Notes: generated by a model from the sequence alone, not told the origin. Positions 5,753 through 56,146 are shown, counted from the stretch's first letter. The stretch: DNA of 64,000 nt from Prorocentrum cordatum (GCA_963575745.1 CAUYUJ010000035.1:1-64000); one strand, 5' to 3'. Made by a program: numbers and translations.

Positions 5753-6759
5753 TAATGTTGCAGGATTTCCTTATTGTTTCAATTGGGCCTCCTATCATTT
5801 CGTGAGGCTGAGGGAGGAAGGAGTGAAGGAGAGAGAAGGGAGGAGGAAAAGGGACACAACGGGAAAAGGGGAGCAGGAGACAGGGATCAGGAGGAGGGAA
5901 GGATGAGAAGAGAGAGTGTCTCGTGGCAGTCTCCCGGGGGCGGCTCTGGGGTGTCTTCAAAACCTTCCTGGAGGCTGTTGCGGGCGTCTCGTGGTTTCGT
6001 GGGGCCTCTTGGGGGCCACTCGGGTTTCTCGGGGTCTCTCGGGGGGGGGGGGCACCGCTGTCTGCCGTAGGAGAAGCGGAGGCGGCTCCTTTTCAAAGGT
6101 GCAGTACGCGGACGCCCTCGCTGTCCTTGCATTGGCAACGGCCACAGCTGCGCAGCGCGCCCGCTTGAGGCACTCACGCCTTTAGGCGGGGCTTCGCAGA
6201 CGAGGCCCTCCAGCAGAGAGGGCCGGCAACGCTGCTTCTCAGCGGCGGCCGGAAGGGTTTGGCCGCCTTTTGCTACCATGCCAGCGCCCAGGGCTGGGGT
6301 GCCATCACAGCTGCTGAATGGCTGGTAGATCATTCCGATTTCAGCGACAGCGAGCAGGGCTGAGCTTGGCGTCTTGTGCGCTGGGGCGCTCCAAAAACAG
6401 GATCACGATGTCTTTATCTCAGGCGCTGTTGCGCAGACCGTCGCCTCCTGGTGCATTTGAGAGTCTCGAGAGTCTCGGGGCGCGGTCAACGAGGCTCAAG
6501 CCAGGCAACGTTTGTCCCCCGTGTCCCTTGCTGGCGCAAAGGCGCCGGCCTAGAGCCATGCCTAGAACTCCACAACTCGAGGGCTAAGCGGAAGGGCCCC
6601 GGGGCTTTCATACGCCATTCAAAGAGCGGGCCAGGCTTCCAGAGGTGATTTTCCGATAATCGCATGTTGAAAACGGTCCCCCCCTCCATCCGTGCAACAG
6701 CTGGAAGCGGAGGATGGGTAGGAGGAGGAGCGCACATAGCTGGGAAGACGGTGCCACAG

Positions 6760-9700
6760 CTACTGCACAGCACCAGCATCGCATTGCGGCTAATGCAGCA
6801 GTTCGTATCTGGTAATGGTATGAAGGCGTGGCGGCCTGCGGTCGCCGCGCAAGGTCCGCTTTCAGCTTCTGGTAGATGTGAAAGCTCAGGGCCACGACTT
6901 GGTGACATCGTGAACGTGGATATTCGATCTCGCGATCGGGGCGGGGGCCGAGCCCCAGGCGAGTGAGAGGACAAGAAGGGAGGACTCCACGAGGAAGGGC
7001 GAGAAGGTGGAGGAGGTGGGGGCACTGGAGATAATGGGCGAACGAATCGGGACCAGTGCAACTGAAAAGGCATGGCGCATCGGGTGCGCTCAGGACGCGG
7101 GCTGAGGTCGTCCAGGCTCCAGCCAACGTCTGTGGGTGGGCCCATGTCCACGCGGGGGGGCATCGGGCAAGAATCACCCTGAACCCTCCCCATCGAGCCT
7201 CAAGATCAGCGGGCAGCAGCGGCGGAAGGTCGCGGGGCCAGGAAAACATACGACGGCGCAGCAAGGTTGGGAGTTGGGAGGGAATCGGGAAAGAGCGAAG
7301 CCTCAAGGGAGGAGGAGAGGATTCGCTGCGGTCGCGGGCGGCGCTCCTCGGTGGCGGCCGTCGCCAGCTCCACCCTCGCCGCCGCCGCCGCTGGGGTCCA
7401 GGCCTCCAGCCTGGCGCCCGGTGGCCCTGAGCGGAGTACCAGCTCCAGGCACTCGGCGATCGAGCTCTGACGCTCCCAGATCTCCGACGTCAGAGCCCCC
7501 GAGGCCAGGCGGCCGAGAGAGCCGTGCATCTCGGCGTGGCCACGGAACAGCTCAAGGCCCTCCCCCCGTCCGCCCGCCCCGTCCCGCCGAAGAGTGTGGG
7601 TCGCCGTCCGCCGCGCCAGCACCCGGAGCGAGCGAGGGGCCGCCGACCGAAACCAGGAGATCCCCAGGAGCACAGCCAGGCCAAAGGAATTGGGAGGGAG
7701 GCGGAGGAGGCGGTGAAGGACGCGGCGCTCGGAGCAGAGGAGCGCGGGGAGGGGGAGGGGAGAGCTGGCGCGCGTGGCTGAGCGCTGGGAGAATCCCGAA
7801 CGTATAAATCCTGCAGCTGGCCTCAGCGGGTGTTCGGCCCAAGGCCACTTCTGCGGTTCTAGCTCCACATTTGGCAGCTGGGCTCTGCCATTGGGATGAC
7901 AGCGTGGGGGCAGGGCCGACTTGGAAGCCCAAGAACTCGGCGGCGCATTTCACATGGAACTCCACCCATCCTGGCGCAAGGGCGAGGAAAGACGAGCGAA
8001 CTCGCTCGACGACTTCGGGGCCACGTCTCTCCGCCAGCGGAACAAGGCAACATTTGGAGGGCTGAAGGGCCAGGCACGCGAGACGGCGGGCGGCGACGAA
8101 CGCGGGCCTGAGGAGAGGGAGGAGGCGAATCGAAGGGAGGGCGGCGCCCGCGTCGTCCGCCGTCGCTCCGCACCCAGGTTCTAGCCCAGGGCGCCACCTT
8201 CCGGGGGCGGGGCACATTGCCCGGGCCATCGCAGAGCCCAGAGAGGAAGCCATGTCCCGCAGGACGGGGTCCATGCAGAGGGCCCAGATGGTCCCGGAGA
8301 GCGAGCAGCCCAGGGCAACGCCCGAGGCCGCAGTGAACAGGGGGGCCCTGGCCGCCCCGAAGCGGGGGTGGGCGAGAGCCCCCGAATACAAAACGCGAGC
8401 AACATTCAGGTACCTTGTCGGAGGCGACGGCGAGCAAGCACGCGATGAAGAAAGAGCTGGGAGATGGAGGGAAAGACAGCACGGGGGTCGAAGGAGACGA
8501 AGAGAGGCAGATAGGCTGGATGATGGCTACACGCGCGCGCCCGCGCATCCAGACGCACCGCGTGCATCGGAAAGCCCCAGCCACGAATGAACCCAAGTTG
8601 GCAAGCATGGGCGCGCGAGGCGGTCAGAGGCGCCAGCATCTGTTTCGCAGCAGCCGCGACAGCTTTCGCGTCGCAGCTTTTCAGGCTGAGCGGCCGCACC
8701 TTCTCCGTCGCTCGGATGGTTTCCAGCGCGTCGCCCGTCTCCGCGCCCTTCGGAATAAAGGCCATGACCGAGAAGTTGAAGCCCCACGGTGCGGGGGCGC
8801 CACGGAAGAGGCCGATCATCAGGTCGCGTAAAATCTCGGCGAGGCGATCGTTCCCCAGCCGCGCCCGCGCCCGGAGCCGATCAGGACCAGGTGCCGTGGG
8901 GCGAACGCGCTGTAGCGCTGCTCGCAGGCCACTCACTGACGGCACCTCGAGATGCGGCTGCTCGTAGTCAGGCAGGTGCTGGGCGAAATACGCGTCGATG
9001 GCCGCCGCCAGCTGGGCATCATCCACAGGCGGCTCAGCCGTGAAGGTGGGCTGCCCGTAGTGGCGCAGCGCGTCCAGCATCGCGATGGTGTCGCGATCGA
9101 TGGAGACCTGGTGCCCCTCGCCGTCGGCGCGGATGCCAGCAAGTACCAGCTGCCGCCGATGGGGCACCCACAGCAGGGCACGTCGCTGCGCCGCGCGCTG
9201 CATCTTGCGACGATGGAACTCCGATGGGCCATCCGCTCCCTGCCGAGCTTGGGCCTCCTCACGGAGGCGCGCGGCGGCGGCGGCCTGTTGGCGTTCGTGC
9301 CAGGCGAGATGCAGCAGGCGACAGTCCTCCTCGAAGGCCATAGGGTCGCTCAGGAGGACCTGCGGCGTGGTCTCGATGCCACCCTCCGCATCCCTGCGGG
9401 CGCGTTCGCGCCCCCACGCTTTGCCGAGCACGTCAACGCGCTGCTCGACCACTTCGACTTCTCGGGCCTGGCCGCGGAGAACCGTTGGAGGATGTTGGAG
9501 GGAGGCCAAAGGCCAGTTAGTGGAGGCCGCTCGTCTCACGCGGAACGAGATGCAGGCCATCCCCATTGGCGATGGCGACGAGGAAACCGCTGAAGGGCGA
9601 CGATTCTCCGCCCGCGCTGTGGTCCGAGCCATGTGGCGACAAAATCTCCGACTGGCTCAGCGCCTGGTCGACGGCGCCGCGTTCGGCGCTCGCCATTTGC

Positions 9701-10670
9701 ACATCTGTCAGCGGCTGGATCTCCAGCTGGACGATAATCAGCATGGCCACTCAGGCCCCAGTCCGCCAGGGAGGCGGCCTCCTGCCAGATCTCGAAGAAG
9801 GTGATCGTGGTGTCCAGGACGCAGTGGCTCTGCGGGGAGACGAAGGCGCGGTCGATGAAGCTGCAGGTCTGGCGATGCTTCGAGTAGTGGGTGGGCAGCT
9901 CGCACGAGATCTCGAGGAGATCGCGCTGGAAGAGGCTGCGCCGGGTTGCCACGGTGCCAGACGGAGCGCCTGTTCGAGCGAACGACGCGTGGACGAGCAC
10001 GAACTGAGCAGTCATCAGATGAGGCGGTGGAGCCAGTGCTGGAAGCGGACGAGCTTGAGGAGGTAGTCGAGGAGGGTGACGGGAAGGTGGCTGGGGTGCT
10101 GGGGTGGACTGAGAGGGCCGCGTCGACGCCGGTGGGGCGGGGCGAGCAAGTGGGACCGGCTCCCGGTCCGCGATGTTGAAGTCGCCGATGGCAATGGAAA
10201 TGCGGCGGCGCGCGTCGTCCGCCCAGCGAGTCCTGATGACAGGCAGCACCTGCGGCGGGAGAGCACGATTATGCACGTTCATGATGCTGACGTGCTCGTT
10301 CGTCGAGGAGTTGGAGATGGCGAGGACGGCAGCGCGCCCAAAGAGCATGTTCTCGAACTGGAAAACGGGCCGCAGGTGCTCCGCAGTCGCTGGAACCTGG
10401 GCGGCGGGATACCACGGAACCAAGAAGGCCAATCCACCAATGCCAGGCGAGTCGCACGGACAGAAAACGACGTGATAGTGGTACGGTAGCTGGTCCAGGA
10501 CGGCGCGGAGCTTCTCCCCGGTGCCGTGCGTCTGACCGTCTCCTGGGTTAAAATCAGCATGCGCAGCTTCGTGAGCTTCGCGAGCCTGGAGATCTCGCCA
10601 TGCCTTTTGTACGCGCGCTGGCAGAAGAACCCGCGAGCCGTCCAGGAGGCGATGCGCAGCCCTCCGAATG
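6760..10670 (-). pseudogene. LINE ORF2 (AP endonuclease + reverse transcriptase + C-terminal Cys/His knuckle), frameshifted
   Basis: APE motifs: LRIASWTARG, QET..HG, GGLAFLV, IGDFN, SFIDRAF, GLSGH (SDH-like). RT motifs: APGPD, FIPKG, VRPLSL, QLGFIRG, FVSFDPRAVFPSI, SGVALGCSLSG, ATADD, PSKC, FLGF. C-terminal CLFSC..PDSFAHYLQC. Motifs are spread across several frames. Confidence 0.88.
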
Positions 10671-10718
10671 TCTGCTTGCCTTGGGCCGGGGCGAATTCCC
10701 AGAGTTAGCCAACGCGGG

Positions 10719-12659
10719 CTAGGAGCAGGACCGGGTGGAGGTATCCACCTCGCCGGCCAGCTCGGTGGCGCCGCGGAACCTGTCGATGGCGCGCTGGCGC
10801 TCGGGGTCAGGCAGGAAGCGAGAGGCTCGGGGGCCCCAGAAGATCTTGGACGGCTCGTGGAAGCCCTGCGGGACCACCTCGATGATGGGGACGGCATTGC
10901 AGCTGATGATGCCCTTGGCCCGGAGCGCGGTCCAGTCCCGGCCCCTGCCGAAGTGCTGCTGGAGGAGCTGGAGCAGCCGCTTGGCGTGCATCTCGCGGCG
11001 AACTTGTCGAGGAGTTTTGTCGGCACCCACATGGAGGGCAGCGTGGCGACCGGAAAGGAGCACAACGCTCCGCCAGGGGCTCGAAGGGCTTTGGCAAGCG
11101 CAATAGCTCGAACTCCACCAGCGGCTGCGTCACCGAGCACATGGACAAAGAACCGACGACTGGGTGCATCACCACCAATTACCCCAGTGCGACCCTACCT
11201 AGAAGTTGGAGCCCCTAGGAAAGCAGCAGTAGTTGCTATGCTATGCTATGCTATGCTATGCTATGCTATGCTATCTTATGCTATGCTATGCTATGCTATG
11301 CTGCGCTATGCTATGCTATGATATAATATGACATGCTGCGCTATGCTATGCTATGCTATGCTATGTTATGCTATGCTATGTTAAGCTATGATATGTCATG
11401 CTGAGCTGTGCTATGCTAAGGTATGACATGACATGACATTATATGATATGATATGCTAGGCTGCGTAATGCTATGCTATGCTATGCTATGCTATGATATG
11501 ATATGTTATGGTATGCTATGATGCGCTATGCTATGCTATGCTGTGCTATGCTATGTTTGGCTTTGGTATGCGATGCTATGTTATGCTAATACAGCGCTGC
11601 GTTATGCTAAGCTAAGCTAAGCTAGGCTAACCCTCTAGGCAGAGCCTAGATAGGGAATTACACCCATGCTAATGCTGTGCCGTGTTGTGCTGCGCTATGC
11701 TATGCTATGCTATGTTATGCTATGCTATGCTATGCTATGCTATGCTGCGCTATGCTATGCTATACTGGGATATGCTATGAGATGCTATGCTGCGCTATGC
11801 TACGCTACGCTATGCTATGCTGTGCTCTACTATGCTAAAGCTCAGCGAAGCTAAGATGAAGGTAAGCTAAGCTAAGATAAGGGAACGTCACTGGGGGAAC
11901 CGCGGGGCGGATCCTGGGGGAACCGCCGGGGGCGGGGAACACTGCCCGGCCCTTTAAGCATACAGGGTAAGAACCCTTCTAGGCAGAGCCTAGGCAGGGA
12001 AAAAGTTCAAGATGCTCCATGGGGACCTGGGGCGCCGCGATCCGTTCTTGCAGGCTGGCCTGGACCGCAACTTTCGTGACCAGCTGCCCGCAGTTGGCTG
12101 GGAAGAGGAGAGGGTTCGCGTCACGATCATAGTCAACTAGCCGAGCGAGATCAGCAGCATACATGGTGGCCTCGGTTTGGGCCAACGAGGTGCAGATGCC
12201 ATCAACCTGTTCCCGAAAACAGGCGTTGTCACGCTCCAGGTCATCCTGACGCTGCTTGAGCTGCTGGATGTCGTTAGAGTGGGCGGCGATGTCCGCGACA
12301 ATCGGTTCCACAAACTTGCCCATAGCGCCCACCAGGTCCTGCTGCGCCGCTGCCATGGACCGCTTGCAGGCCTTGTCCATCTCTGCGTCGGTGGCATCCA
12401 TGCGCGTCTTGACGAGCGCCAGAAGATGCGATTGGAAGTCCGCACTGGCGGCCACCGCACCACTGGCACCACTGGGGCCGCTGCGGGCGGCAGCCGAACT
12501 CAGGGCTCCAGCAGGCCCTTGCTGCGGCGGCCCCTCGGGCGGATGCGGGGCCCCCGGCGTCGGGAAGGTGGCCGCCGCGTCGTGCTCGCGGTCGAACTGG
12601 CTGGCGAAGGTGGGCGTCACGTCCAGCTGCTGGAGCATGGCCGCCTCATCGGGCGCCAC
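10719..12659 (-). pseudogene. LINE ORF1 (coiled-coil), interrupted by the 11179-12001 insertion
   Basis: Heptad-like segment IAAHSNDIQQLKQRQDDLERDN. The frame continues MEHLELF-GGDAPSRRFFVHVLGD after removing the insert, then shifts into DKTPRQVRREMHAKRLLQLL... and ends just upstream of the APE domain. Confidence 0.7.
11179..12001 (-). mobile_element. Head-to-tail pair of Helitron2-like elements (subfamily 3) carrying (GCTAT)n satellite
   Basis: Units 11179-11657 and 11658-12001 each end on + in CTAGGC-AGA-GCCTAG..AGGGAA. Subterminal inverted copy CCCTACCTAG at ~11193. Inserted in an A-run with no TSD. Confidence 0.7.
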
Positions 12660-13142
12660 GGCCGCGGGCCCGCGCGCCAGGCATCGCGGACCTGGAGCGT
12701 GTCCGCATGGGCAGCGGCGGCGCCAGCGCTGGCAGCACCGCGGTGCTCGCCTCGCCGTCGCTCGGCGCCCCGAGGGGCGCCCAGCGGCGCCGCCGTGTCC
12801 GCCGCCGCCGCGGGAGTCGTCGGCGGCCCACCGCCCGCCGCCGCCGCCAGTCCGGCGCGGGCGGCCGCGGCCCCGGCGCGCTGCGCGCTCCTCGCCGCCG
12901 CTGCGGCCGAGGGCTGTGCGGGTCGGCCCCCCCGCCGAGCAGCCTCGCCACTGGAAGAAGCAGAAGACTCGGAGCCCGTGCAGAGACAGCGGGTCGTGTC
13001 GAGCGAACAGGAACCGCGTGTCGATGTGGAGTGCGGGCGCGCCCGCGAAATCGTGTCTTCAGACCAGCTGTTTCCAGTTGGGCGCTCGAGCCGCCCCCTC
13101 GGCAGCGACCAAGTTCGAAGCGCCAGGGACGCACGTTTCGAA

Positions 13143-13164
13143 CTTGAGCCAAAATGGCTACGGA
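13143..13164 (-). other. Dinoflagellate spliced leader (DinoSL) copy, 22/22
   Basis: Reverse complement reads TCCGTAGCCATTTTGGCTCAAG. Confidence 0.95.
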
Positions 13165-13344
13165 GGAGGAGGAGGAGGAGGAGGAAAAGGAGGAGGAGGA
13201 GGAGGAGAAGGAGGGGGAGGGAGGGAGGGAGGGAGGGAGGGAGGGAGGAGGAGAAGGACGACAATGAGGACGCGGTGGACGAGGACGATGACGACGATGA
13301 CGACGACGACGACGACGACGACGACCACCATAGCGACGACGACC

Positions 13345-16619: not shown

Positions 16620-18515
16620 TGAGATTTGCATCATGTTTAAGGATGGAAGGCGAGTCGTGTTAACCATGTGGCCCTCATCTGATTGCCGCGCACATTCGTC
16701 GTAAAAGCTTCCAGCGGTGTCAAGGATGGAAGGAGTGCAGGTTTCAAACATGATGGACCCACGAACCCGGAAAGGGATATAGACATGTGGAGCATGGACA
16801 CGTTTTCATGATACCCAACTGGGCAACACCTCACGAAACATCCCACGAGACACCTCACGAAACAGCCCACGAGACACCTCACGAAACATTCCACGAGACA
16901 CCTCACGAAACATTTCACGAGACACCCCGCGAAACATTCCACGAGACACCCCACGAAACATTCCACGACGACAGGCAACCACTCAACCAAGGCGGTGTGG
17001 TCGTGCTGGGGAGTGGTCGTGCTGGGGTGTGGTCGTGCTGGGGGGTGGTCGTGCTGGGGGGTGGTCGTGCTGGGGGGGTGGTCGTGCTGGGGGGTGGTCG
17101 TGCTGGGGCGTGGTCGTGCTGGGGCGTGGTCGTGCTGGGGCGTGGTCGTGCTGGTCGTGCTGTGGTGGTCGTGCTGGGGTGTGGTCGTGCTGGGGTGTGG
17201 TCTTGCTAGGGTGTGGTTGCTGGGGTGGGGTCGTGCTGGGGTGTGGTCGTGCTGGGGTGTGGTCGTGCTGGGTGCTAGGGTGGTCGTGCTGGGGTGGGGT
17301 CGTGCTGGGGAGTGGTCGTGCTGGGGTGTGGTCGTGCTGGGGTGTGGTCGTGCTGGGGCGTGGTCGTGCTGGGGTGGGGTCGTGCTGGGGTGGGGTCGTG
17401 CTGGGGTGGGTTCGTGCTGTGGTGAGGTCGTGCTGGGGTGTGGTCGTGCTGGGGTGTGGTCTTGCTGGGGTGTGGTCGTGCTAGGGTGGGGTCGTGCTGG
17501 GGTGGGGTCGTGCTGGGGTGGCTAGGGTGGGGTCGTGCTAGGGTGGGGGCGTGCTGGGGGGTGGTCGTGCTGGGGTGTGGTCGTGCTGGGGTATGGTCGT
17601 GCTAGGGTGGGGGCGTGCTGGGGGGTGGTCGTGCTGGGGGGGTGGTCGTGCTGGGAGGTGGTCCTCAGAATTCAGGTCCCCAGGAGAGGACAATCTATAA
17701 CACAAAACAAGCGTTTCGCTCGAGACATCCTCACCATTTTCTGAAAAACAAGCGTTTCGCTCGAGACATCCTCAAATTTTAATTCGCCGGCTCGTTATTT
17801 ATCATGGAAAAAATTCGCCGGCAATTCGCCGGCTCGTTATTTATCAGGGAAAAAATTCGCCGGCAATTCGCCGGCTCGTTATTTATCAGGGAAAAAATTC
17901 GCCGGCCTCCTTCAAGCAGGCACCGGGGGACAGGTTTACCTAGTACAAAGAGAACCCTGGGCTCTTGCCCTTTCCGGGAAAAGGTGGCTCTCACAATAGC
18001 GCCGCGCACATTCGTTTTAAACACTTGCAACAACTTCGAGGATGGAAGGAGGCCCGGTTTCAAAAGGTTCCTCTAGTCTTAATGCCGCGCGCAGTCGTCT
18101 TAACACATTGCAGAAGCATCACGGATTGAGGGCAGGTCGTTTTCAAGAGGTGGCTCTCAGCTTAGCGCCACGCACGCTCGTCTTAAACAATTGCAAGAGC
18201 TTCACGGCTTGAGGGCGGGTCGTTTTCAAAAGGTGGCTCTCTCATTAGCGCCGCACACACTCGTCTTAAGAACTTGCAAGGGTCTCATGAATTCCCCTGG
18301 TTGCCCAACGTACCAGAGACGGTGTTTTCGAACTAGTCAGGACTCTTAGGGTACAATTGTTAAATGGATTCGACACGCTTTATGATCTTCCAACGGTTGT
18401 CTCCCAACAGGGCAATTCCCTGCGTCGACATGAACCCTTGAAGGGGCCTATGGGGAGGAAGCTTGGAGGAAAGGTTTATTCCGAACATCGTTGATGAGTC
18501 TGGGGTTTGCACTGG
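16620..18515 (+). mobile_element. Dispersed SINE-like element copy 1 (~80-bp tandem array + conserved 3' end + TCC tail), interrupted by copy E
   Basis: Units of TAGCGCCGCGCACATTCG...GTTTTCAAAAGGTGGCTCTC, ending CATCGTTGATGAGTCTGGGGTTTGCACTGG followed by TCCTCC. Homologous to ~27480-28090 and 45023-45482. The 5' boundary is approximate. Confidence 0.55.
16749..17980 (-). mobile_element. Helitron2/Helentron-like non-autonomous element, copy E (subfamily 2)
   Basis: CATGATGGACCCACGAACCCGGAAAGGG ... GCCCTTTCCGGGAA with the same internal arrays as copy C. Splits the A-run of GTTTCAAAAGGTGGCTC in the host repeat. Confidence 0.75.
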
Positions 18516-20494
18516 TCCTCCCTCTTTTCCTCCTCCTCCATTCCTATTCATCCCCCTCCCCCTCCCCCATCTGCGTCCCCATCCTCTCATCCCTCTCCCC
18601 CTCCTGCTCCGATTGCTCCTGCTACACCTTCGTCCGCAGGCCCCGAGGAAAACAAGTCCGCGGGCGCCAGGTGGTCCAAGACAGTCAGGCGCCGATCAGC
18701 CAACGGCGGGGGTACACCTGAGGCGAACTGAGACACGAACACGAAAATAGAGAAGAGCGCGAGAAGAGACAAGACGAAGCCCGCTCAGCCCACTGCGTCG
18801 GCGTGTGGATGCCGAAGGAGGACGCATGCGAGCTGCGTGTAGCCCAGGGCGGTGGTGACAGGGCCCCCACTTCAAAAACTCTGTGATCTGAGATCCAGCG
18901 ATGCGAACAGATGCAGACATCGCGACAAATCACGACCAGAGCCCTGGAGCCCTTCTCGGGGCGGTGTTCGAGCCAAATCGACCTGCGATGGTCCCAATCC
19001 GAAACCGGGCGCAAAACGCCCGGTGTGACAAAATGGCAACGCCCGGATCTCAAAGGCAGCTCTGTTCGCGCTGGGCGCTGCGCGAAGCGCGAAGAACTTC
19101 GCGCTCTCGCGACGCCCCCCCAGGGAAGGGGAGGACGAGGAGGACGAGGAGGATGAGGATGAGGGAATCGCGAGCCGCGAATCATTTCGCACCCTCGTGG
19201 CGGCCCTGGGACCTCAGAGAGAAGACGGGGGCCAAGCGTCAGCCCCAGACTTCCCCCCCGGGGCTGCCGCCGGAGCCCGACGCCCCCAAGCGCAGGCCAG
19301 GGGTGCGCCACGCGCGGCGCGACACCGCGAGGCGTTCTGTCGGTGCCGCGCGCGCGGCGCGCAGACGTCGGCCGCGCGCAGCGGCTCCAGGGGCCCCCAC
19401 ACCTCGACCCGATAGAAGAGGGATGTGCAGTCGACGGGGGGCCGGAGGGAGGAGGGAGGGAGGAGGGGGGAGGCGGACGGAGGCGGAGGGAGGAGGAGGG
19501 AGGGCGGGAGGGAGGGAGGGAGGGAAAGGGAGGAGGAGGAGGAGGAGGAGGAGGAGGAGGAGGAGGACCCATCATCGTTGTGCAATCTTCGGCGGTCTTC
19601 AGGCCGCCCTTCGGCGGCCTGCGGCGGTCTCCCGCGGCCTTCGGCCGCTTCCGGCGCGAAGGCTGGATGGCCGTGTTCAAAACAAGGGGTCCACGATCGA
19701 ACACCTGCAGGCTCAGGCCCAGCGGCGCGAAGCCGCCTGAGCCTGAGGAGTGAGGGAGAGGAAGGCTTGGGTGCCGCGCAGGGTGCTCCAAAGGTGGTTT
19801 CGACCTCCACTCTGGAGGCTCTCTCTCCCGCGCTGTGCGGCTTGTGCTTCCTGGCATGCCCGTGAGGCTCACGGGGGCCTCTGGGACGCGGAGTCCCTCG
19901 CTGCCATCCCCTCCCTGCCCCGCGACCTGCCTCTCCCCACACACCGCGCCCCGGGAAAATAGCGAGGGGGAGGAAGAGGAGTGCGGCGAGGAGGAGGAGG
20001 AGGAGGAGGAGGAGGAGGAGGAGGAGGAGGAGAACGAGGAGAAGGAGGAGGAGGACGACGAGGGCGACGGCGACGAGGAGGAGGAGGAGGAGGGCGAGGG
20101 CGGGGAGGAGGGCGAGAAGGGCGAGGAGGGCGAAAGGGCGAGCAGGGCGAGGTTGAGGAGGGCGAGCAGGGCGAGAAATTCAAGGCACCCCGCCTCCCCG
20201 CCTCCATGGCATGGGCCGGGGCTGGCCGCTCGTCGGCGTACGCGCCGGCGCCAGCCTCGATGCTGACCGCATGCCCGTCGTCCGCCGTCATCCACCGTCC
20301 GTCGTCGTCCGCCTTTCGTCATCCGTCGTCGTCCGTCGTCCGTCGTCGGTCTTCGTCCGTCGTCCGCCGCCGTAGTCTTCGTCCGCCGTCCGCCGCCGCC
20401 GTCGTCAGCATCGTCGTCGGCCTCGCCGTCCGCATCGCCGTCGTCGTCGCCGCCGCCGCCACCGTGGCCGCCGCCGCCGTCGCCGTCGCCGTCG

Positions 20495-20545
<51 letters not shown>

Positions 20546-21379
20546 GTGTACCTGGGACAACACGATGATAGGATTCGGTGGGATATGGTATGGCATAGCA
20601 TGGGATGCCACGCAATGGTAATGTGGCGCGCCATGGACATCGAATGGGCGACGGGTGCACTCGGGACAGGAAGTACACCTGCGACTAGACGTGGCGGTGT
20701 ACATCTGGTGCCCTCTCTTCCGATGCATGTAGATGAGCCGAACTGTCCGCCAATAAGCTTCGACACCTCCAGCGGCTGAGGCGCTCACAGAGGGAGCGCG
20801 CATGTGCTGCGTCAACACAGGGGCTGTCAGTCTGCTCCTACTCCTCTTCCTCCTCCTCATCCTGCAATTTGCATCATATCCCTTATATCCTTCTCCCTCC
20901 CCCTCCACCTCCACTTCCTCTTCCCCTCTCCCCCTCGCCCTCCTCTTCCTCATCCCCTTGATCCAAAGCCTCTTAGTCCCCGTCCGCTTTCAGAGCCTCC
21001 TTCATCATCTCCTTCTTCTCCTCATCGACTTGCGTATACTACTCCTCCCGTTCCTGCTCCTTCTCCTTCCGTCCTCTCGCTCCTGATCGCCTCTTCATAT
21101 TCCTCCACCACCGCATTCTAATCACCATTCTCCTCCTCTTCCTCCTGATTTCCCTGGTCCTCCTCCGCTTCCTCGTCCTGGTCTTCCTTGTCATGCATGC
21201 CTTCTGCTTCGTCTCTACCTTCTCCTCCTCGTCCTCCTCGATTATCCTCGCACGCTTCGCTTCATCCCAGAGTTGTCCCTATCTCGTATTCACCCTCTTC
21301 CTCACTCCTCACACTTTCCCTTAGTTGAGCGCGGCTGCGTCTCGAGCCTGCGTCGCCATTTCCAGAAAACCTCCGTATG

Positions 21380-21900
21380 GGCCTGCCCCCCCAGCAGAGA
21401 GGCCCCGGCGATTATAAACGCAATGGGCAACGGCGGAACCAGACACTGGACGTGACGTATCAGCGACTAGTAAAACATTGCTGAAGGTGCATGTCCAATC
21501 AGACTGGAACGGCCAGCATGTGTTGCAGCACGGTGGAGCAAACTGCCCATTGACACGTCGCGCCAGATGGCTTGGCGGTACGCGATTCACTATCCCATCA
21601 CCAGATGTGAACGACCAGATGAAATTTGCGATGGTGATAACACTTTGTGGCAAGAACGAGTACCGTCTGACAAGTCGTGCATACTAGCCAATTGTGGTCA
21701 CATGGCTGCAGCTACTGGTAACGGAACATCCATGATGACACACCATATGATAATACATGCGTGAATGCAAGATACAAACCATTCCAAGACATGTTGCAAT
21801 AGGCTGGGATACGCGAAACTGGTGTGCACCATGGGCTACAATACACTCACAGACAGTGATTCGCTGCAGTAGGACGGCATTCAACCTGGCCTATCATAGA
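21380..21900 (+). pseudogene. Possible highly decayed LINE AP-endonuclease fragment
   Basis: Non-repetitive, coding-like stretch with YRLTS..L.NCGH resembling the S.H.P..G segment of APE domains; many stops. Confidence 0.3.
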
Positions 21901-22069
21901 ATCCGCCGACCCCGTCGGCGTGTGGAAGACGCGGTTCGTCGTCGTCAAGACGCTGTTTGTCGCGAACCTCGTCGTCGACGTCACCGCTCCCACATGGAGG
22001 TCGCCGCTCTCGCTCTCCCTGAGCCCGTCGCAGAACAGACCAACGTCTCACTGCGTCATAGGGAAGTCC

Positions 22070-22700: not shown

Positions 22701-22750
22701 CCACCTCGGCCTTGTGCCCGTCGTCTCCGTCGCAGTATTCTTCATCGTTG

Positions 22751-22800
<50 letters not shown>

Positions 22801-26301: not shown

Positions 26302-26560
26302 GACGCACGACGAGGTGAACCAGCTGCGCGGGAGCGGCTATCTCCCGATCGGGCGGGTGCCGGCGCTCGAGGTGGACGGCCAGGTGTTCGCGCAGAGCCG
26401 GGCGATCTTGCGCTGGGTGGGGCGCCAGACTAGCTTCTACCCGGACGACCTTCAGATCCAGATCGACCAAGTGGACGAGGCGCTGGTCGACCTGATGAGC
26501 GTTCTGCGCTCGGGCTGGTGCTGGCGGGTCAACAGAAAGACTGACTGTGGGCCCTCTCTG
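26302..26560 (+). CDS. Glutathione S-transferase exon (sigma-like N-terminal domain into the start of the C-terminal domain)
   Basis: LPIGRVPALEVDGQVFAQSRAILRWVGRQTSFYPDDLQIQIDQVDEALVDL matches the GST G-site P.G.VP.LEVDG..QS.AILR pattern. AG|G acceptor at 26300-26302. The 3' boundary is uncertain and other exons were not located. Confidence 0.85.
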
Positions 26561-26712
26561 TCCGCAGCTCCTGCACCCTCCTCCTCCTCCTCCTCCTCCT
26601 CCTCCTCCTTCCTCCTCCTCCTCCTCCTCCTCCTCCTCCTCCTCCTCCTCCTCCTCTCCTCCTCCTCCTCCTCCTCCTCCCCTCCCTCCTCCTCCCCATC
26701 CCGACTGCGGCG

Positions 26713-47760: not shown

Positions 47761-47919
47761 ATAGCAAAGGTACGAGCGATGCAGGTAAGGAGGCAGGGGG
47801 CACTCTGAGGCAGGAGGCAGGAGGAAAATGCTGGAGGAGGAGGAGAAGGAGGAGGAGGAGGAGGAGCAGGAGGAGCAGGAGGAGGAGGAGGAGGAGGAGG
47901 AGGAGGAGGAGGAAGAGGA

Positions 47920-49435
47920 TTTTTGCCGCTGCACCACTCTGCCCACACATCCTGTGCACGAATTCGCCGGTGACAAGGTACTCCATCCCAACGCGCTCCG
48001 TGGAAGAGACGAGGTACGCGGAGAAGAAGCCGAGCCAAACGGTGCTGAACAGGGATGGCGGTAACCCTGGCTCCGCCTCCGAATGCACAACCAGGCGGGC
48101 CTTGAGGAGAGCCCGTCAATTGAGGGAGAATGGGTTCTAGAAAACCTGGTTGCCAACTGCATCGGCAGGGCCATTGACAATGTCGAAGCAGGCAGGGCAC
48201 AGGACAGAGTCGCAGACAACGCACAAACGCAGCAGAGAGCCAGGTTCCAGAACACCATCGCATACCTTACACTGATACATGTCGCTACTGCGCGTGCTGA
48301 CCGTTGCAGATTTTCAACCATCTCCAACATGCGCCAGACAGCCGCAGGTGCCCGTACCCAGAAAGAGAGCGGCAGGGCCGTACGTGGATTGGGCATACGC
48401 GTAATTGTAATTGTCGCAACTATCTGAAACAAGAGGCGAAGCTGGCACATGGGCACCATTATCTTATGGATCTTCGACACCACCGTACTGCCCGACAACG
48501 AAGCCAGTAACGTCAGTGTCAACAACTCTGCTTTCCACTCTGCTATTCGTCTGAACACGATTCCGATCGAATCATCGCGCGGCCGAGCCCTGCGCCCAGA
48601 TGGAATCCGTATCCATTTCGCAGACAGCCCCTTCCGACGCAGGGCGATCCAAAGAAAAAGCGGCGTCCCCGGGGGCCGTCCTCAGCGAACTCCAGCTTCC
48701 CGAAACCCTGCTCCGAGCGCAAATCGACTGCCACGTCCATGTGAGAATCCCCGACGGAAGTGCCGTCGGCCAGCCTCGACTCTTCACACGCGGCCCCCCC
48801 CCCTGCAGCGCAGACAGCAGCACGTCGACGTCGCACGACCAGGAGGCGAGGAAGTGTTGGACCGCACCTGGCAGGAAGCGGGTGGCCTCCGCGCGCAGCT
48901 CCGTAGGGGCGACCCGCGGCTCGACCGAAGGAAGCCGTTGTGCGGAGGTTCGGTGTCGCAGATCTCGACGTCGACGCTCTCCTGGGCAGGCTGCCGAGGG
49001 CCCAGGTGCGGGCCGCGCCTTGCCGCGCGCAGCTGGCGCGTGCTAGCGCGTGCCACGTCCACACCAGGAGCCTCGGCATGAAGAGCCACGTCACGGCGCA
49101 GCTTGTCCGCGGGCAGTGGGCGCCGCCCGCGGAGAAGCGAGGCGAGGGCAGGGGCCACGGCGATCAGCCGCTGGACCACCTCCTCGTCCCCGAGTGCCTC
49201 CATGAGCGCCTCGTACTTCGATCGGGCCTCAGACAGCTCCCTCGAAAGCCGCAGGACGAGCGCGTCGGCGGACGCCCGTGCCCCCGCGGCTCCGCGCAGG
49301 CGCCGCCGGCCCTGCGCAGATCCGGCTGCTGCGCACGCCGCGGAAGGGGGCGGCGGCAGCGTCCCGCGCCACCGCGGGTCCCGCGCGCGCCGAAAGCGGG
49401 CGGAACACCAGGCCTTGAGCCAAAACGGCTACGGA
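47920..49435 (-). pseudogene. Spliced-leader-headed retrocopy or retroelement 5' portion with a decayed ORF and Cys-rich zinc finger, embedded in (TCC)n
   Basis: SL at 49414-49435. ORF segment EALGDEEVVQRLIAVAPALASLL...LRRDVALHAEAPG. CKVC-x10-CVVC-x4-CPAC at ~48188-48271. Ends AAAAA then TCC repeats. Confidence 0.6.
49414..49435 (-). other. Dinoflagellate spliced leader relic, 21/22
   Basis: Reverse complement reads TCCGTAGCCGTTTTGGCTCAAG. Confidence 0.9.
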
Positions 49436-50315
49436 GGAGGACGAAGAGGAGGAGGAGGAGGAGGAGGAGGAGGAGGAGGAGGAGGAGGAGGAGGAGGAGT
49501 GGAGACCACAGTGCCCTATCCAAACGAGAGCCCAACACACAGGAGGCTTGGGGGGAGAGAAACAAATGCTTTCAGGACCCCCCCCCCAGGGGCCCAATCC
49601 AGGTTCTTGCCTCTCTTCCACGAAGTCTGGAGCCAACGAAGGTCTTTGCTTCGTGCCCCCGAAACTCTCTGATGCGCGTGCGCCCCCCCGGCTCGGCGAA
49701 GGAGCAGCGTGCGCCGATCCTGGGCCCAGGATGGGCCTGGCCCGGCGGGGGGCGGTGGCCGTGGACACGTCGGCGGTTTCCGGTTCGGCGTTGCGACACT
49801 GGGCGGAGGGGGGGGGGGGAGAGGGGGGGTGGTCTGGCTCCGGACCTCTGCTGGATGCGCCTGCTCGAAGCGGGCGCCAATGGGGGAGACTCCGCCTGCT
49901 CGAAGCGGGCGCCAAGAACAGCCAAGATCTACTGCATGGTGGGGGGGTAGGGAGGGGGGGGGTAGGGGGGGGGCGAGGGCCCGCGCCGATCGGCAAAACA
50001 GTGAATACAAAAACGATCACCAAAGACTTGTTTGTTTTTGTTTTAGACGCGGGTTGGAATCAAGCGCGAACTCCTGGGCAGCAGCGGGACCGAAGGAGGG
50101 CCCGCAAAAAGGCAGCGACCGAGCGCAGAATCGAGGCCTGCATAGACTTGTGGAGGTCCGCGTGGGTTTCTTGGTGGACAATGGAACAAACGAATCCACA
50201 CCCCACCTGCGGCCCCACAAACAACCGGAATTCATGAGACATGCAAACTGCATATCTCATGAATTCCGGCTTGCAGTTTTGGCGTGGTAGACGCCACGGC
50301 CCCCGATGGGCCGCA

Positions 50316-53840: not shown

Positions 53841-55447
53841 CAGGAACGTCCTGGCCCTCCAAGCATCCAGCGGGCCGTCGGCGCGTCAGGCGAACGCCCT
53901 GCGCCGAGGGGCCGCTGGTGCGCAGAGCGGCGCCCACTGGCCGCCGCTGGCGGCCAGCCGCGGCCGCCGCGGCCGCGTGCCAACAGCGAGCCGCGCGAGC
54001 CGCGCGAGCTGCGCGGCGGCCAGCGCGCCGCGGGGGGCCATCGCGCGAGCCGCGCGGCGGCCGCGCCCAGGGGGGCAGGGCGCTCCGCGCGCGGCGGGCG
54101 GGGCGGCTGGGCCCTGGGCAGGACGGCCCTGCGAGGAAAGATGGGGGTTGGGCGGCGGCGCGGTGACGGGCATGGGAGGGTGGGGTAGGGGGGAGGGATG
54201 GGGGAGGAGGCGGAGGAGGAGGAGGAGGAGGAGGAGGGGGAGGAGGAGGAAGAAAAGGAAGAGGAGGGGGAGGACGGGGATGAGGATGAGGATGAGGAGG
54301 AGGAGGAGGAGGAGGAGGAGGAGGAGGAGGAGGAGGAGGAGGGGAAGGGGGAGGAGGAGGAGGAGAGGGGGAGGGGATGGAGGACAAGCTAGGTGCGCTC
54401 GCGTCATATCTGACGTCCTACCCCTCCCTCCCATCCCTTACCATGGCGCTGATGTTCTCTATCCGCGGACGCGTGTCGTAGCGGACCTGTGGCTCCGCGC
54501 GCGCGTGCGTAGTGGGTGGTGGTGCACGTGCGTGCGTGCGTGCGTGCGTGCGTGTGTGCGTGGTTGTGGTGGTGGTGGTGGTGCTGGGTGGTGCTGCTGG
54601 TGCTGGTGCTGCTGGTGCTGGTGGTGGTGTGTGGTGCTCGTGCTGGTGCTGGTGCTGGTGCTGGTGGTGGTGTGGTGGTGGTGGTGGTGGTGGTGGTGGT
54701 GGTGGTGGTGGTGGTGGTGGTGGTGGTGGTGGTGGTGCGGCGCGGTGGTGGCGGGCGGATGGGCGCGCGAGAAAGAGGCCCGCGCTGGGGCGAGAACGCC
54801 ATCCTGAACGACGGAGGCCAAACACCGATCCGAAAATGAGGCCCACGCTGCAGCGGGAGCACGATTCGGAACGATTCGGGAGCAGAAATGAGGCCGGCGC
54901 CTCAGCGAGAGCATCATTTTGAAAAAAAACGCAAGCGAAAACCCGTTTCCCGGGAATCCTGTGTGTAAAAAAACAATACGCGGGGGGCGTTCGGCCCGAA
55001 AATGACGCCGGCGCCTCAGCGAGAGTCGTTTCCCGGGATTTCCCGGGCATCCTGTGTGTTAAAAAACAGTTCTCGGAGGGTGCGCGGCCATCACCCGGAC
55101 GCCATCAGGGGAAGAGGGAGAGTATTGTCATATTGAGTAATTGTAGAGGAAGAGGAGGGGGAGGGGGAGGGGGAGGGGGAGGAGGAGGAGGAGGAGGAGG
55201 AGGAGAGGAGGAGGAGGAGGAGAGGAGGAGGAGGAGGAGGAGGAGGAAGGAGGAGGAGGAGGATGGAGGAGGAGGAGGAGGAGGAGGAGGAGGAGGAGGA
55301 GGAGGAGGAGGAGGCGAGGAGGAGGAGGAGGAGGAGGAGGAGGAGGAGGAGGAGGGAGGAGGAGGAGGAGGAGGAGGAGGAGGAGGAGGAGGAGGAGGAG
55401 GAGCAGCAAGAGGAGGAGGAGGAGGAGGAGGCAGAGGAGGAGGAGGA

Positions 55448-56120
55448 GCGCATGTACTTTCCTTGTCTGTGTCTCTTGTGCATATGGTGGTGCGCGCGGC
55501 AGCGCGCACGCTCCTGATCTGGACTGGGCTCACAAAACCCTGCTGACTCAGCAGAGGACGGAGCTTGTGGTAAATGTGGAAAGCAAACAAGCACGAGCCT
55601 GTGGTGATATATAAGGCGCCAATCCTCCAAACCCGTGTAGTCGACCTCAGCACCAAGCCCGAAACGCACCAGCGGGGGACTCATACACGGCGGGGAACTC
55701 GGGTTGGAGCTCGGTCGCCTCCCACAGAGACGGCAAAGTCTGTAGTGTTGGATGGCGTCAGGGGCCTCGCATCCGAATCGGCAACGACACTGCGCAAATA
55801 TTTTCACGCGGCTCGACGTTATCCACGCGCCCACGAGAGACTTCACGTGAGGCCACGACCGACTGGGAGCGGGTCTACACAGCAAACCTTGGAGACGCCT
55901 CCAGCGGAGCCCAAGGACATATGGGACTCTAGGACGGGCAAGTCGGGGAACCACTGTCGGAGCCCCCGAGCGATGAGATGAGGCATGCTGTCTGGAATGG
56001 TCTGTAGGTGGATGCTGGGCGAGCATCGCACCTGAAAGCGGGGTGGCTTCTTGTGGTCCAGAGCGTTCTGAGCCTCAGATTCAGCTGCAATGTGGGCTCT
56101 GCGGGGGATCGGGTGGGGAA
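55448..56120 (-). mobile_element. 5'-truncated LINE 3' fragment related to the 6720-13164 element, flanked by (TCC)n
   Basis: KSLVGAWITSSR..CRFGCEAPDAIQHYRLC, RFGLG and AFHIYHKL parallel RLGLG and SFHIYQKL of the first LINE. 3' end ...CATGCGC(TCC)n. Confidence 0.8.
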
Positions 56121-56146
56121 AAAGAGGAGGAAGAGGAGGAGGAGAA

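What the first reader, a model, noticed from the sequence alone, without database searches (positions are those of the whole stretch)
6720..13164. LINE whose 5' end is a perfect spliced leader, with both ends fused to (TCC)n
Seen on the minus strand: (TCC)n running directly into TCCGTAGCCATTTTGGCTCAAG, then ORF1, APE, RT and Zn knuckle, then GCGC(TCC)3. Established: DinoSL is trans-spliced onto mRNAs, and SL relics mark retroposed genes. Inference: this retrotransposon moves through a trans-spliced transcript and was copied full-length, so it would not need an internal promoter in the usual LINE sense. The TCC at the start of the SL gives microhomology to the TCC target, which could complete 5' joining.
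Basis: partly seen in the sequence, partly recalled or inferred. Interest (0 to 1): 0.75.

Follow-up and report, generated by a model that had tools for sequence, protein, structure and literature searches.

The report
Spliced-leader-headed LINE in TCC microsatellite
A dead but full-length jumping gene (LINE) in a dinoflagellate-type genome starts with the exact 22-base spliced leader that these organisms add to their messenger RNAs and sits inside a TCC repeat, and related LINEs elsewhere show the same head, so the family seems to copy itself from leader-carrying RNA.

Summary
On the minus strand, (TCC)n runs in phase into a 22/22 DinoSL (13164..13143). A 5'UTR follows, then ORF1, an APE-RT-CCHC ORF2, and the end ...GCTATGTGCGC + (TCC)3 (6740..6721). 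The copy is dead: an 829-bp high-copy insertion in ORF1, a ~320-bp inversion and at least 4 frameshifts.

The SL belongs to the LINE. A relative's contig joins 11176 to 12006, and ORF1's C-part matches the ORF1 profile of SL-headed LINEs (E 1e-7).

The SL head is not unique to this copy. Of 5 related metagenomic LINE loci with at least 1 kb upstream of ORF2, 2 have a perfect SL, 1 a truncated SL and 2 none. A further locus shows LINE tail-(TA)n-SL-ORF1.

The TCC flanks recur in the window. A second SL-headed 1.5-kb retrocopy and a 5'-truncated LINE fragment ending ...GTACATGCGC + 270 bp of (TCC)n are both TCC-flanked. This fits microsatellite-targeted priming.

That the SL is renewed by trans-splicing each cycle, and that no internal promoter is needed, remains inference; no RNA data were available. 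TCC microhomology is not required, because relatives join the SL to (TA)n.

No paper I could search states that LINEs begin with DinoSL.

The parts
13165..13206 (-). 5' flanking (TCC)n tract, running in phase into the TCC that begins the SL; further (CCCT)n and (GTC)n repeats lie upstream to about 13440
13143..13164 (-). DinoSL, TCCGTAGCCATTTTGGCTCAAG, 22/22; the first base of the element
   Evidence: SL consensus as quoted in the passages
12639..13142 (-). 5'UTR (about 504 nt if ORF1 starts at the ATG at 12638); no SL relic detected in it
   Evidence: best local SL score 6, shuffle p about 0.94; covered by relatives' contigs (bins 12562-13035)
12006..12638 (-). ORF1 N-terminal part (coiled-coil-like), interrupted at 12005
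   Evidence: colinear but weak match to the ORF1 profile (E 0.18, second-best of 911 ORFs); X6 record 30 covers 12067-12677
11177..12005 (-). Secondary insertion, not part of the LINE: two tandem units, each starting TTCCCTryCTAGGCTCTGCCTAGA and followed by a (CATAG)n array; very high copy in related genomes
   Evidence: (joint 11176->12006 skips 829; summed contig depth 18,000-32,000 versus about 10-150 for the LINE body; loose ends at 11177 with low agreement)
10722..11176 (-). ORF1 C-terminal part, ending at the stop codon 10721..10719
   Evidence: ORF1 profile E 1.1e-7; tblastn with L001 ORF1 residues 226-316, 29% identity, E 3e-7
9740..10659 (-). ORF2 apurinic/apyrimidinic-type endonuclease, with a frameshift near 10500 and a Pro-rich insert
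   Evidence: profile 3-60, 43-169, 195-255; profile positions 1-263 match exonuclease III structures; Exo_endo_phos in relatives
9389..9709 (+). Inverted segment inside ORF2 (APE-RT linker); profile positions 306-372 read on the plus strand
   Evidence: 9496..9711 on +; 'opposite strands' joints 9388/9709 and X6 record 27
7744..9359 (-). ORF2 reverse transcriptase, with a frameshift near 8412
   Evidence: profile 375-674 E 1.7e-59; 674-881 E 7e-46
6782..7748 (-). ORF2 C-terminal region, with frameshifts near 7746 and 7290; CCHC motif CLFSCTGPDSFAHYLQC at 7072..7019
   Evidence: C1086/C1090/H1098/C1102 nearly invariant in A2
6730..6740 (-). 3' terminus GCTATGTGCGC, shared with the second LINE fragment (GTACATGCGC)
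6721..6729 (-). (TCC)3, a short 3' tail or target remnant, followed by the TCC-like TACCCATCCTCCGCTTCC
47914..49435 (-). Second SL-headed retrocopy (SL with 1 mismatch at 49435..49414; about 1.5 kb, no known domain). (TCC)n lies directly 5' (49498..49436) and 3' (47913..47833). Same insertion signature as the LINE
55448..55912 (-). 5'-truncated fragment of a second LINE of the family (profile 1045-1160, CRFGCEAPDAIQHYRLC), ending GTACATGCGC. A (TCC)n tail lies at 55447..55178 and a TCC-like tract at 56146..56115 on the 5' side

Best explanation
The region 13164..6730 (minus strand) is one inactivated but 5'-complete copy of an L1-like non-LTR retrotransposon. It has a coiled-coil ORF1 and an ORF2 with APE, RT and a C-terminal CCHC motif. 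It belongs to a family spread through DinoSL-bearing (dinoflagellate-type) genomes.

Shown:
- The element begins with the exact 22-nt spliced leader.
- ORF1 and the 5'UTR belong to it.
- Divergent relatives carry the same head.
- The window's retro-elements lie in (TCC)n with TCC on their sense strand.

Inferred mechanism:
- The LINE RNA carries the SL at its 5' end, most simply because it is trans-spliced like any nuclear mRNA of these organisms.
- The endonuclease and RT prime on the GGA strand of a (TCC)n.(GGA)n microsatellite, against a (UCC)n-ended RNA.
- Reverse transcription ran to the first base of the SL.
- The cDNA end was joined within the TCC tract. The SL's own TCC makes the junction ambiguous by 3 nt.
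- The same machinery also inserted another SL-headed RNA (47914-49435) and made a 5'-truncated copy (55448-55912).

Later an 829-bp repeat, an inversion and frameshifts killed this copy. How daughter copies are transcribed is open. The options are read-through plus renewed trans-splicing at the AG that ends the encoded SL, or a promoter within the element or the SL.
For: SL identity and chance:
- The SL is 22/22. Two SL sites are found where 0.01 is expected.
- Both SLs abut (TCC)n in phase; about 6e-4 per oriented position by chance.

ORF2:
- The profile maps colinearly across APE, RT and CCHC.
- The family profile's best solved relative is LINE-1 ORF2p (E 1.3e-51), then R2 (E 4e-34). The N-terminus matches exonuclease III.

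ORF1 and 5'UTR belong to the element:
- The X6 contig joins 11176->12006, and relatives' contigs cover 12067-12677 and the 5'UTR bins.
- The ORF1 profile hits 10722-11129 at E 1.1e-7.

Relatives (80 metagenome loci):
- L001: SL at 117-138, intact ORF1, intact 1200-aa ORF2.
- L004: SL at 172-193, then ORF1 and ORF2.
- L002: LINE 3' end, then (TA)n-like tail, SL, and an ORF1 N-terminus (ORF1 profile E 2e-11).
- L021: a truncated SL, then ORF1 and ORF2.
- The ORF2s are only 26-35% identical and the 5'UTRs are unalignable across subfamilies, yet the SL is perfect. In a rough 13-taxon RT tree, SL-headed copies fall on both main branches (support values not examined).
- Possible older SL relics lie inside the 5'UTRs of L021 (p about 0.002) and L004 (p about 0.03).

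Microsatellite signature:
- In the window, LINE1, the LINE2 fragment, the SL2 retrocopy and two SINE-like 3' ends are all followed by (TCC)n.
- In 9 of 29 relatives with at least 100 nt downstream of ORF2, a simple repeat follows: (TAC)n, (TA)n or (CCT)n.
Against: - No transcript evidence. No RNA holder was listed and all laid runs are contigs. Trans-splicing of this LINE is therefore not observed.
- 2 of 5 relatives with enough upstream sequence (L022, L080) show no recognisable SL. Their best local scores of 8 and 9 lie within the shuffle range.
- No other copy of this LINE's 5' end from the same genome could be examined, because no genome is held.
- The window copy shows no SL relic. Relics are the classic footprint of re-spliced retrocopies, so repeated trans-splicing has no direct trace here.
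- At the 3' end only (TCC)3 follows the element.
- ORF1's N-part homology is not significant on its own (E 0.18).
- The contiguity evidence rests on one contig of depth 9.4 with 46 letters on its shorter side.
Confidence: 0.75

Rival explanations
1. The SL was captured at some time, once or a few times per lineage, and is now a templated, selected part of the LINE's 5'UTR. An internal promoter, or the T-rich motif in the SL itself, starts transcription at or near base 1. The SL is then copied like any other base and trans-splicing plays no part in each cycle.
For: - There is a single SL with no relic behind it in the window copy, L001 and L002b. If encoded SLs were re-spliced at the internal GTAG, relics would pile up.
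- Song et al. 2017 propose that T-rich motifs of DinoSL relicts act as promoter elements of retrogenes (abstract and passages seen).
- L1Tc of trypanosomes, another SL organism, uses an internal promoter and gives unspliced transcripts (title and abstract listing only).
Against: - The SL is perfect in four LINEs whose ORF2s share only 26-35% identity and whose 5'UTRs do not align.
- Possible older relics sit downstream of a newer SL in L021 and L004, which suggests more than one acquisition.
- A non-LINE SL-headed retrocopy with the same flanks (47914-49435) shows that SL-capped RNAs are substrates of the same machinery.
Confidence: 0.2
2. The SL and the sequence down to about 12000 belong to an unrelated SL-bearing retrocopy that happens to lie in front of a 5'-truncated LINE.
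For: - ORF1's N-part has no significant database relative: 0 hits among 2250 candidates.
- It is separated from the rest of the element by 829 bp of foreign repeat.
Against: - A relative's contig joins 11176 to 12006.
- The N-part aligns colinearly to the ORF1 profile, positions 63-171, and the C-part aligns significantly.
- SL-ORF1-ORF2 is found in L001, L004 and L021, and SL-ORF1 in L002.
Confidence: 0.03
3. The LINE is a site-specific element that inserts into spliced-leader RNA genes, as CRE/SLACS/CZAR and NeSL do, so the SL is target DNA.
For: LINEs specific for spliced-leader exons exist (passages of Kojima & Jurka 2015).
Against: - Those clades encode a restriction-like endonuclease; this element has an APE.
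- Upstream of the SL are different microsatellites in different copies, not a shared SL-gene promoter.
- No SL-gene remainder follows the 3' end.
- Rfam finds no RNA gene in the window.
Confidence: 0.01
4. Assembly artefact: a cDNA-derived or chimeric contig joined to a microsatellite.
For: The scaffold has a gap (44923-45022), and this copy has an inversion that could be a mis-join.
Against: - The same repeat-SL-LINE arrangement occurs in independent metagenome contigs.
- It occurs twice more in the window with TCC flanks.
- The element is decayed, as old genomic DNA is.
Confidence: 0.02

Closest known systems
L1-like APE-type non-LTR retrotransposons, including the 'SymbioLINE' elements described in Symbiodinium (de Mendoza et al. 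2018; passages seen)
   Same: ORF1 followed by an ORF2 with APE, RT and a C-terminal CCHC motif. 5'-truncated copies occur. The best solved relative of the family profile is human LINE-1 ORF2p.
   Different: The element starts with the host's 22-nt spliced leader, and no poly(A) tail is seen. The tail or target is (TCC)n. ORF1 has no Pfam family and no DNMT. Clade placement against reference LINE clades was not done.
Microsatellite-target-specific LINEs (Tx1 and R1 clades with APE; some RLE clades), as summarised by Kojima & Jurka 2015 (passages). The names Kibi and Koshi, fish LINEs for (TC)n and (TTC)n, are recalled only.
   Same: The same simple repeat lies on both sides, orientation is fixed relative to the repeat strand, and relatives form head-to-tail arrays (L002).
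   Different: The target here is (TCC)n. Relatives use (TA)n or (TAC)n, so the repeat varies with subfamily or host. Strict specificity is not proven; no empty sites or genome-wide census were available.
DinoSL-tagged retrogenes, or 'recycled' cDNAs (Slamovits & Keeling 2008 as cited; Song et al. 2017; Open Biol 2025)
   Same: A DNA-encoded DinoSL at the 5' end marks reverse transcription of a mature, leader-bearing RNA.
   Different: The retroposed RNA is that of the retrotransposon itself, so the tag marks the autonomous element that probably supplies the RT. The full 22-nt SL is kept, without the truncated relic arrangement typical of retrogenes.
Spliced-leader-gene-specific LINEs (CRE/SLACS/CZAR, NeSL)
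   Same: LINE sequence lies directly next to spliced-leader sequence.
   Different: Those insert into SL RNA genes and use a restriction-like endonuclease. Here the SL is part of the element's RNA, the endonuclease is an APE, and the flanks are microsatellites.
LINEs that define their 5' end by RNA processing of co-transcripts (HDV-like ribozymes of L1Tc and relatives; title and abstract listings only)
   Same: Possible functional analogy: a promoterless or co-transcribed element gets a defined 5' end by RNA processing.
   Different: The processing here would be SL trans-splicing, not self-cleavage, and it is not demonstrated.

Membership tests
Non-LTR (LINE) retrotransposon, APE type, L1-like architecture | Reverse transcriptase of the LINE type | tested here: met
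   Profile A2 positions 375-881 map at E 1.7e-59 and 7e-46. There are 752 relatives. The profile hits LINE-1 ORF2p at E 1.3e-51. Pfam RVT_1 on the window pieces is only weak but clear in relatives.
Non-LTR (LINE) retrotransposon, APE type, L1-like architecture | N-terminal apurinic/apyrimidinic-like endonuclease | tested here: met
   Profile positions 3-255 map to 10659..9740. These positions match exonuclease III structures. Exo_endo_phos is found in P0011 and in the L021 ORF2. Catalytic residues of the decayed window copy were not checked.
Non-LTR (LINE) retrotransposon, APE type, L1-like architecture | ORF1 upstream of ORF2, C-terminal CCHC, no LTRs, 5'-truncated copies | tested here: met
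   ORF1. CCHC. No terminal direct repeats among the 23 self-matches of the window. Truncated copy at 55448-55912.
L1 or Tx1 clade proper | Placement inside the clade in an RT phylogeny with reference elements | not tested
   No reference LINE sequences were available to me. Only the closeness to solved LINE-1 ORF2p over R2 is known.
Microsatellite-target-specific LINE | Independent insertions flanked on both sides by the same repeat, in one orientation | tested here: met
   LINE1, the SL2 retrocopy and the LINE2 fragment all have TCC on the sense strand at both ends (LINE1's 3' side has only 3 units). Two plus-strand SINE-like 3' ends are followed by (TCC)n.
Microsatellite-target-specific LINE | Empty target sites are uninterrupted microsatellites; most copies genome-wide lie in that repeat | not testable with these tools
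   No genome is held, and no run holds the locus.
DinoSL-tagged retrocopy | DNA-encoded DinoSL at the 5' end of the retroposed unit | tested here: met
   22/22 at 13164..13143.
DinoSL-tagged retrocopy | Truncated relic SL(s) behind a newer SL, the sign of repeated recycling | tested here: not met
   No relic in the window's 5'UTR (score 6, p about 0.94). Suggestive relics occur only in relatives L021 and L004.
SL-exon-targeting LINEs (CRE/SLACS/NeSL) | Restriction-like endonuclease and insertion inside SL RNA genes | tested here: not met
   The endonuclease is an APE. The flanks are microsatellites that differ between copies. No RNA gene is found by Rfam.

The most novel reading that the evidence does not exclude
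These LINEs use spliced-leader trans-splicing as their normal way of making a defined, translatable 5' end. A copy is transcribed by read-through from wherever it lands. The AG that ends its own encoded SL serves as the acceptor; in this genome the (UCC)n target supplies a polypyrimidine tract just upstream. The old leader is swapped for a new one at exactly the same junction. Every full-length daughter therefore starts with a perfect SL and needs no promoter of its own. The family would then also be the engine that retroposes SL-capped host mRNAs into the same microsatellites.
Probability: 0.3. Interest if true: 0.8.

Novelty: new variant of a known kind. Interest (0 to 1): 0.6.

Why it matters
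Dinoflagellate genomes are full of retrogenes tagged by DinoSL relicts, but the enzyme source and the integration mechanism are stated as unknown or only presumed to be LINEs (passages). [quoted passage not shown]

SL-headed LINEs in the same microsatellite context as an SL-headed non-LINE retrocopy give a concrete candidate machinery, and a sequence signature to search for: repeat-SL...3' end-repeat.

They also pose a clean question for LINE biology. Can trans-splicing replace the internal promoter or ribozyme solutions to the 5'-end problem?

Practically, SL-relict counts used to date 'bouts of retroposition' would include LINE copies. The enrichment of 'RNA-dependent DNA replication' among SL-tagged genes reported by Song et al. 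may simply be these elements.

Tried and rejected
- The whole genome is not held, so no census of SL copies in the source genome was possible.
- Nucleotide and protein self-searches found no second full copy in the window. Only the CCHC-region fragment near 55.8 kb appeared.
- A Pfam scan of 228 further long ORFs of the window found no other RT.
- A search for ORF1 N-part homologues gave no hit among 2250 candidates of 120-384 aa. The 'longer' and 'shorter' length classes were not tried for ORF1.
- The look-up of sequencing runs: no RNA holder was listed, and no run held more than 0.13 of the words. The laid runs were contigs only, so starts, strands and expression cannot be read.
- The exact pattern (TCC)3+SL gave 0 matches in genome contigs and 0 in viral contigs.
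- The SL alone in viral contigs gave 119 stretches and 134 unique sites. None (0 of 134) is followed by the LINE ORF1 or ORF2 profiles. This is a different phenomenon; see Noticed in passing.
- L015b and L019b, which are SLs downstream of LINE 3' ends, could not be shown to head LINEs. Only a weak MAFFT similarity of L019b to the L004 5'UTR was seen.
- Loci L054-L078 match only profile positions up to about 790, have no SL, and are probably other LINE clades or hosts. I left them out of the 5'-end tally.
- Earlier-findings look-ups returned nothing.
- Literature: 8 searches and passages of 11 papers. None states that dinoflagellate LINEs begin with DinoSL. Supplements, such as the retrogene lists of Song 2017 and González-Pech, were not opened and may bear on this.

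Full report
**What is there**

The window is 61% G+C and has one 100-N gap at 44923-45022. On the minus strand a compound microsatellite, (GTC)n, then (CCCT)n, then (TCC)n, runs in phase into TCCGTAGCCATTTTGGCTCAAG at 13164..13143. This matches the dinoflagellate spliced leader DCCGUAGCCAUUUUGGCUCAAG at 22 of 22 positions, as quoted in the passages seen.

A scan for the 21-mer with up to 3 mismatches finds two sites where 0.01 is expected by chance. The second site is at 49435..49414 with one mismatch. It is also directly preceded by (TCC)n, in phase. The window holds 80 runs of (TCC)>=4, covering 1.5% of both strands. The chance that an oriented position directly follows such a run is about 6e-4. 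Two of two SLs doing so is therefore not chance (the arithmetic is mine).

**Anatomy of the element**

Pfam alone barely sees it: RVT_1 at E 0.0024, below its cut-off, in 10 pieces tested. An exhaustive search with the 416-aa RT piece finds 752 relatives at E<=1e-3 and 178 at E<=1e-10. Many are 1000-1300 aa long.

Eighteen full-length relatives align well (A2). They share invariant APE and RT residues and a nearly invariant C...C...H...C near the C-terminus. Members carry Pfam RVT_1 and Exo_endo_phos. The profile's best solved relatives are human LINE-1 ORF2p (E 1.3e-51), then R2 (E 4e-34). Its first 263 positions match exonuclease III.

Mapped on the window, the profile runs colinearly on the minus strand:
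- APE, positions 3-255: 10659..9740
- RT, positions 375-881: 9359..7744
- C-terminal region, positions 880-1182: 7748..6782
- CCHC motif CLFSCTGPDSFAHYLQC: 7072..7019

The profile has 1201 positions, so ORF2 should end near 6725. The element in fact ends GCTATGTGCGC (6740..6730), followed by (TCC)3 (6729..6721).

The copy is dead. It has frameshifts near 10500, 8412, 7746 and 7290. Profile positions 306-372 read on the plus strand at 9496..9711, which means an inversion of about 9389-9709. An 829-bp foreign repeat splits ORF1.

**Does the SL belong to the LINE?**

Contigs of four public runs were laid at >=80% likeness. They show diverged copies of the element in other organisms.
- One contig of run X6 joins 11176 to 12006. 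In that relative the two halves of ORF1 are therefore contiguous, and 11177-12005 is a later insertion.
- That insertion is a very high-copy repeat. Its summed contig depth is 18,000-32,000, against about 10-150 for the LINE body, and the loose ends at 11177 are heterogeneous.
- The insertion consists of two units with (CATAG)n arrays.
- The same run shows the inversion joints at 9388/9709. It covers ORF1-N (12067-12677) and the 5'UTR bins up to 13035 at body-like depth.
- A 788-nt contig of the run is laid on 6720..7506 over all but 7 of its letters, consistent with a contig that breaks at the tail.

An ORF1 profile built from three metagenomic LINEs hits the window's ORF1 C-part at E 1.1e-7 among 911 window ORFs. 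The N-part is the second-best hit and colinear, but at E 0.18 it is not significant alone. I conclude that the SL, the 5'UTR and ORF1 are one unit with ORF2.

**Do other full-length copies have the SL?**

No genome is held for the window. I therefore fetched DNA around relatives of A2 from metagenome contigs. Of 595 pattern matches, 283 were confirmed and 80 loci were kept. SL-like sequence (15-nt core, up to 2 mismatches) occurs in 6 of the 80 loci. All six are on the LINE's strand.
- L001: a perfect SL at 117-138 after an (ACATATAAA)n-like repeat. An intact 331-aa ORF1 and an intact 1200-aa ORF2 follow.
- L004: a perfect SL at 172-193 after (TA)n, then ORF1 and ORF2.
- L021: a 5'-truncated SL (TTGGCTCAAG) after (TA)n, then ORF1 and ORF2.
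- L002: a LINE 3' end ...CCGCGGGAAATATATACATG runs straight into a perfect SL. An ORF1 N-terminus follows (ORF1 profile E 2e-11; homologous to L004's ORF1). This is a head-to-tail pair.
- L015 and L019: an SL lies downstream of a LINE 3' end. What the SL heads could not be shown.

Five loci of the same architecture have at least 1 kb upstream of ORF2: L001, L004, L021, L022 and L080. Two of them have a perfect SL, one a truncated SL, and two none recognisable. The best local scores of the last two are 8 and 9, within the shuffle range (mean 7.06, 95th percentile 9). L080 may be cut by the contig end.

I left out L054-L078. They match only the first ~790 profile positions at 24-28% identity and probably represent other clades or hosts.

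The SL-headed LINEs are only 26-35% identical in ORF2. They fall on both main branches of a rough 13-taxon RT tree (support values not examined). Their 5'UTRs do not align across subfamilies. Even so, the SL is letter-perfect in four of them, counting the window.

L021 has a second, degenerate SL-like stretch 28 nt behind the first (p about 0.002). L004 has one 29 nt behind (p about 0.03). These hint at more than one round of leader addition in those lineages. The window copy has no such relic.

**The TCC at both ends**

At the 3' end of the finding only three TCC units follow, but the pattern recurs in the window.
- A 5'-truncated fragment of a second LINE of the family lies at 55912..55448 (profile 1045-1160, E 1e-11; CCHC motif CRFGCEAPDAIQHYRLC). 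It ends GTACATGCGC and is followed by about 270 bp of (TCC)n. A TCC-like tract lies on its 5' side.
- The second SL heads a ~1.5-kb unit with no recognisable domain. It ends ...GGCAAAAATCC and then (TCC)n follows.
- Two ~300-bp plus-strand repeats, about 70% alike by the alignment's conserved-column marks, both end ...TTGGGTTyrCACTGGTC followed by (TCC)n.

In relatives the repeat differs. A simple repeat lies downstream of ORF2 in 9 of 29 loci with at least 100 nt of downstream sequence: (TAC)n, (TA)n, or (CCT)n in L042.

This is the signature of LINEs that prime reverse transcription on a microsatellite that matches their RNA tail. Target-specific LINEs for microsatellites are known, mostly from the Tx1 and R1 clades among APE elements (passages). 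It is not needed, since relatives join the same SL to (TA)n.

**Mechanism and its rivals**

Shown: SL-first LINE copies occur in several divergent subfamilies; ORF1 and the 5'UTR belong to the element; insertions lie in microsatellites in one orientation; an SL-headed non-LINE unit has the same flanks.

Inferred: the template RNA carried the SL because it was trans-spliced, reverse transcription reached its first base, and the same machinery retroposes other SL-capped RNAs.

Open: how daughters are transcribed. No RNA holder was listed.

Rivals:
- The main rival (about 0.2) is that the SL is now a templated, selected part of the 5'UTR, transcribed from an internal or SL-borne promoter. Song et al. 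propose that T-rich SL motifs act as promoter elements.
- A fused unrelated retrocopy is rejected on the evidence for ORF1 contiguity above.
- An SL-gene-targeting LINE is rejected on the endonuclease type and the flanks.
- An assembly artefact is rejected on the independent loci with the same arrangement.

**Novelty**

I ran 8 literature searches and read passages of 11 papers. I found no statement that dinoflagellate LINEs begin with DinoSL.
- Song et al. 2017 report that 'RNA-dependent DNA replication' is enriched among SL-tagged genes. In hindsight this may be the same phenomenon.

Supplements were not opened.

Because all nuclear mRNAs of these organisms are thought to receive the SL, the finding is a natural corollary rather than a new principle. 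I rate it a new variant of a known kind, with moderate to high interest. It names a candidate engine and an insertion signature for dinoflagellate retroposition, and it makes the promoter question testable.

Noticed in passing
window 11177-12005: An 829-bp insertion in ORF1 made of two tandem units. Each begins TTCCCTryCTAGGCTCTGCCTAGA and is followed by a (CATAG)n array. The summed contig depth in four public runs is 18,000-32,000, far above the LINE body, and the flanks at 11177 are heterogeneous. It looks like a very abundant mobile or satellite-bearing repeat in related genomes.
   Followed up: partly
window 9389-9709: A segment of about 320 bp in the APE-RT linker is inverted relative to the family profile and to a relative's contig. 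It may be a real rearrangement or a mis-assembly.
   Followed up: partly
window 47914-49435 (minus strand): A second SL-headed unit (SL with one A>G change), about 1.5 kb, ending GGCAAAAATCC and flanked by (TCC)n on both sides. It has no Pfam domain in the two ORFs tested and contains a small Cys-rich ORF at 48137-48280. It is probably a retrocopy of a host or non-autonomous RNA made by the same machinery.
   Followed up: partly
window 27800-28097 and 45190-45483 (plus strand): Two ~300-bp repeats, about 70% alike by the alignment's conserved-column marks. Both end ...TTGGGTTyrCACTGGTC directly before (TCC)n, like the 3' ends of a SINE-like family with the same tail.
   Followed up: partly
window 6721-6745 and 55440-55465 (minus strand): No stop codon precedes the (TCC)n tail in the ORF2 frame of the second LINE fragment (...GKYMR then poly-Ser). 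In one frame the first copy reads ...SYVR then SSS. ORF2 of this subfamily may therefore run into the microsatellite tail. Relatives such as L001 do have a stop codon and a 3'UTR.
   Followed up: no
L081-L199 (IMG/VR contigs, many in bins named GVMAG): The exact 21-nt DinoSL occurs at 134 unique sites in very AT-rich DNA (median 21% G+C). Of these, 127 are preceded by A and sit behind two or three conserved AT-rich motifs. 116 of 134 are followed within 400 nt (median about 50 nt) by an ORF of at least 80 aa. The 27 ORFs tested are mostly ORFans, with DUF4116 repeats and CCCH and RING fingers. 0 of 134 are followed by LINE ORFs. This looks like genome-encoded spliced leaders in front of many genes, possibly leader mimicry by giant viruses of dinoflagellates, or mis-binned alveolate DNA.
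   Followed up: partly
L002:2244-3002; L019:1552-2871: Head-to-tail arrangement: a LINE 3' end (...CCGCGGGAAA), a short (TA)n tail, then directly a new SL-headed unit. The tail of one element seems to serve as the target of the next.
   Followed up: partly
L021:33-90; L004:222-236: Degenerate SL-like stretches lie a few tens of bases behind the terminal SL: TCCGTATCCATTT in L021 (p about 0.002) and GCCATTTGGCCCAA in L004 (p about 0.03). They may be relics of earlier leader additions in LINE 5'UTRs.
   Followed up: partly
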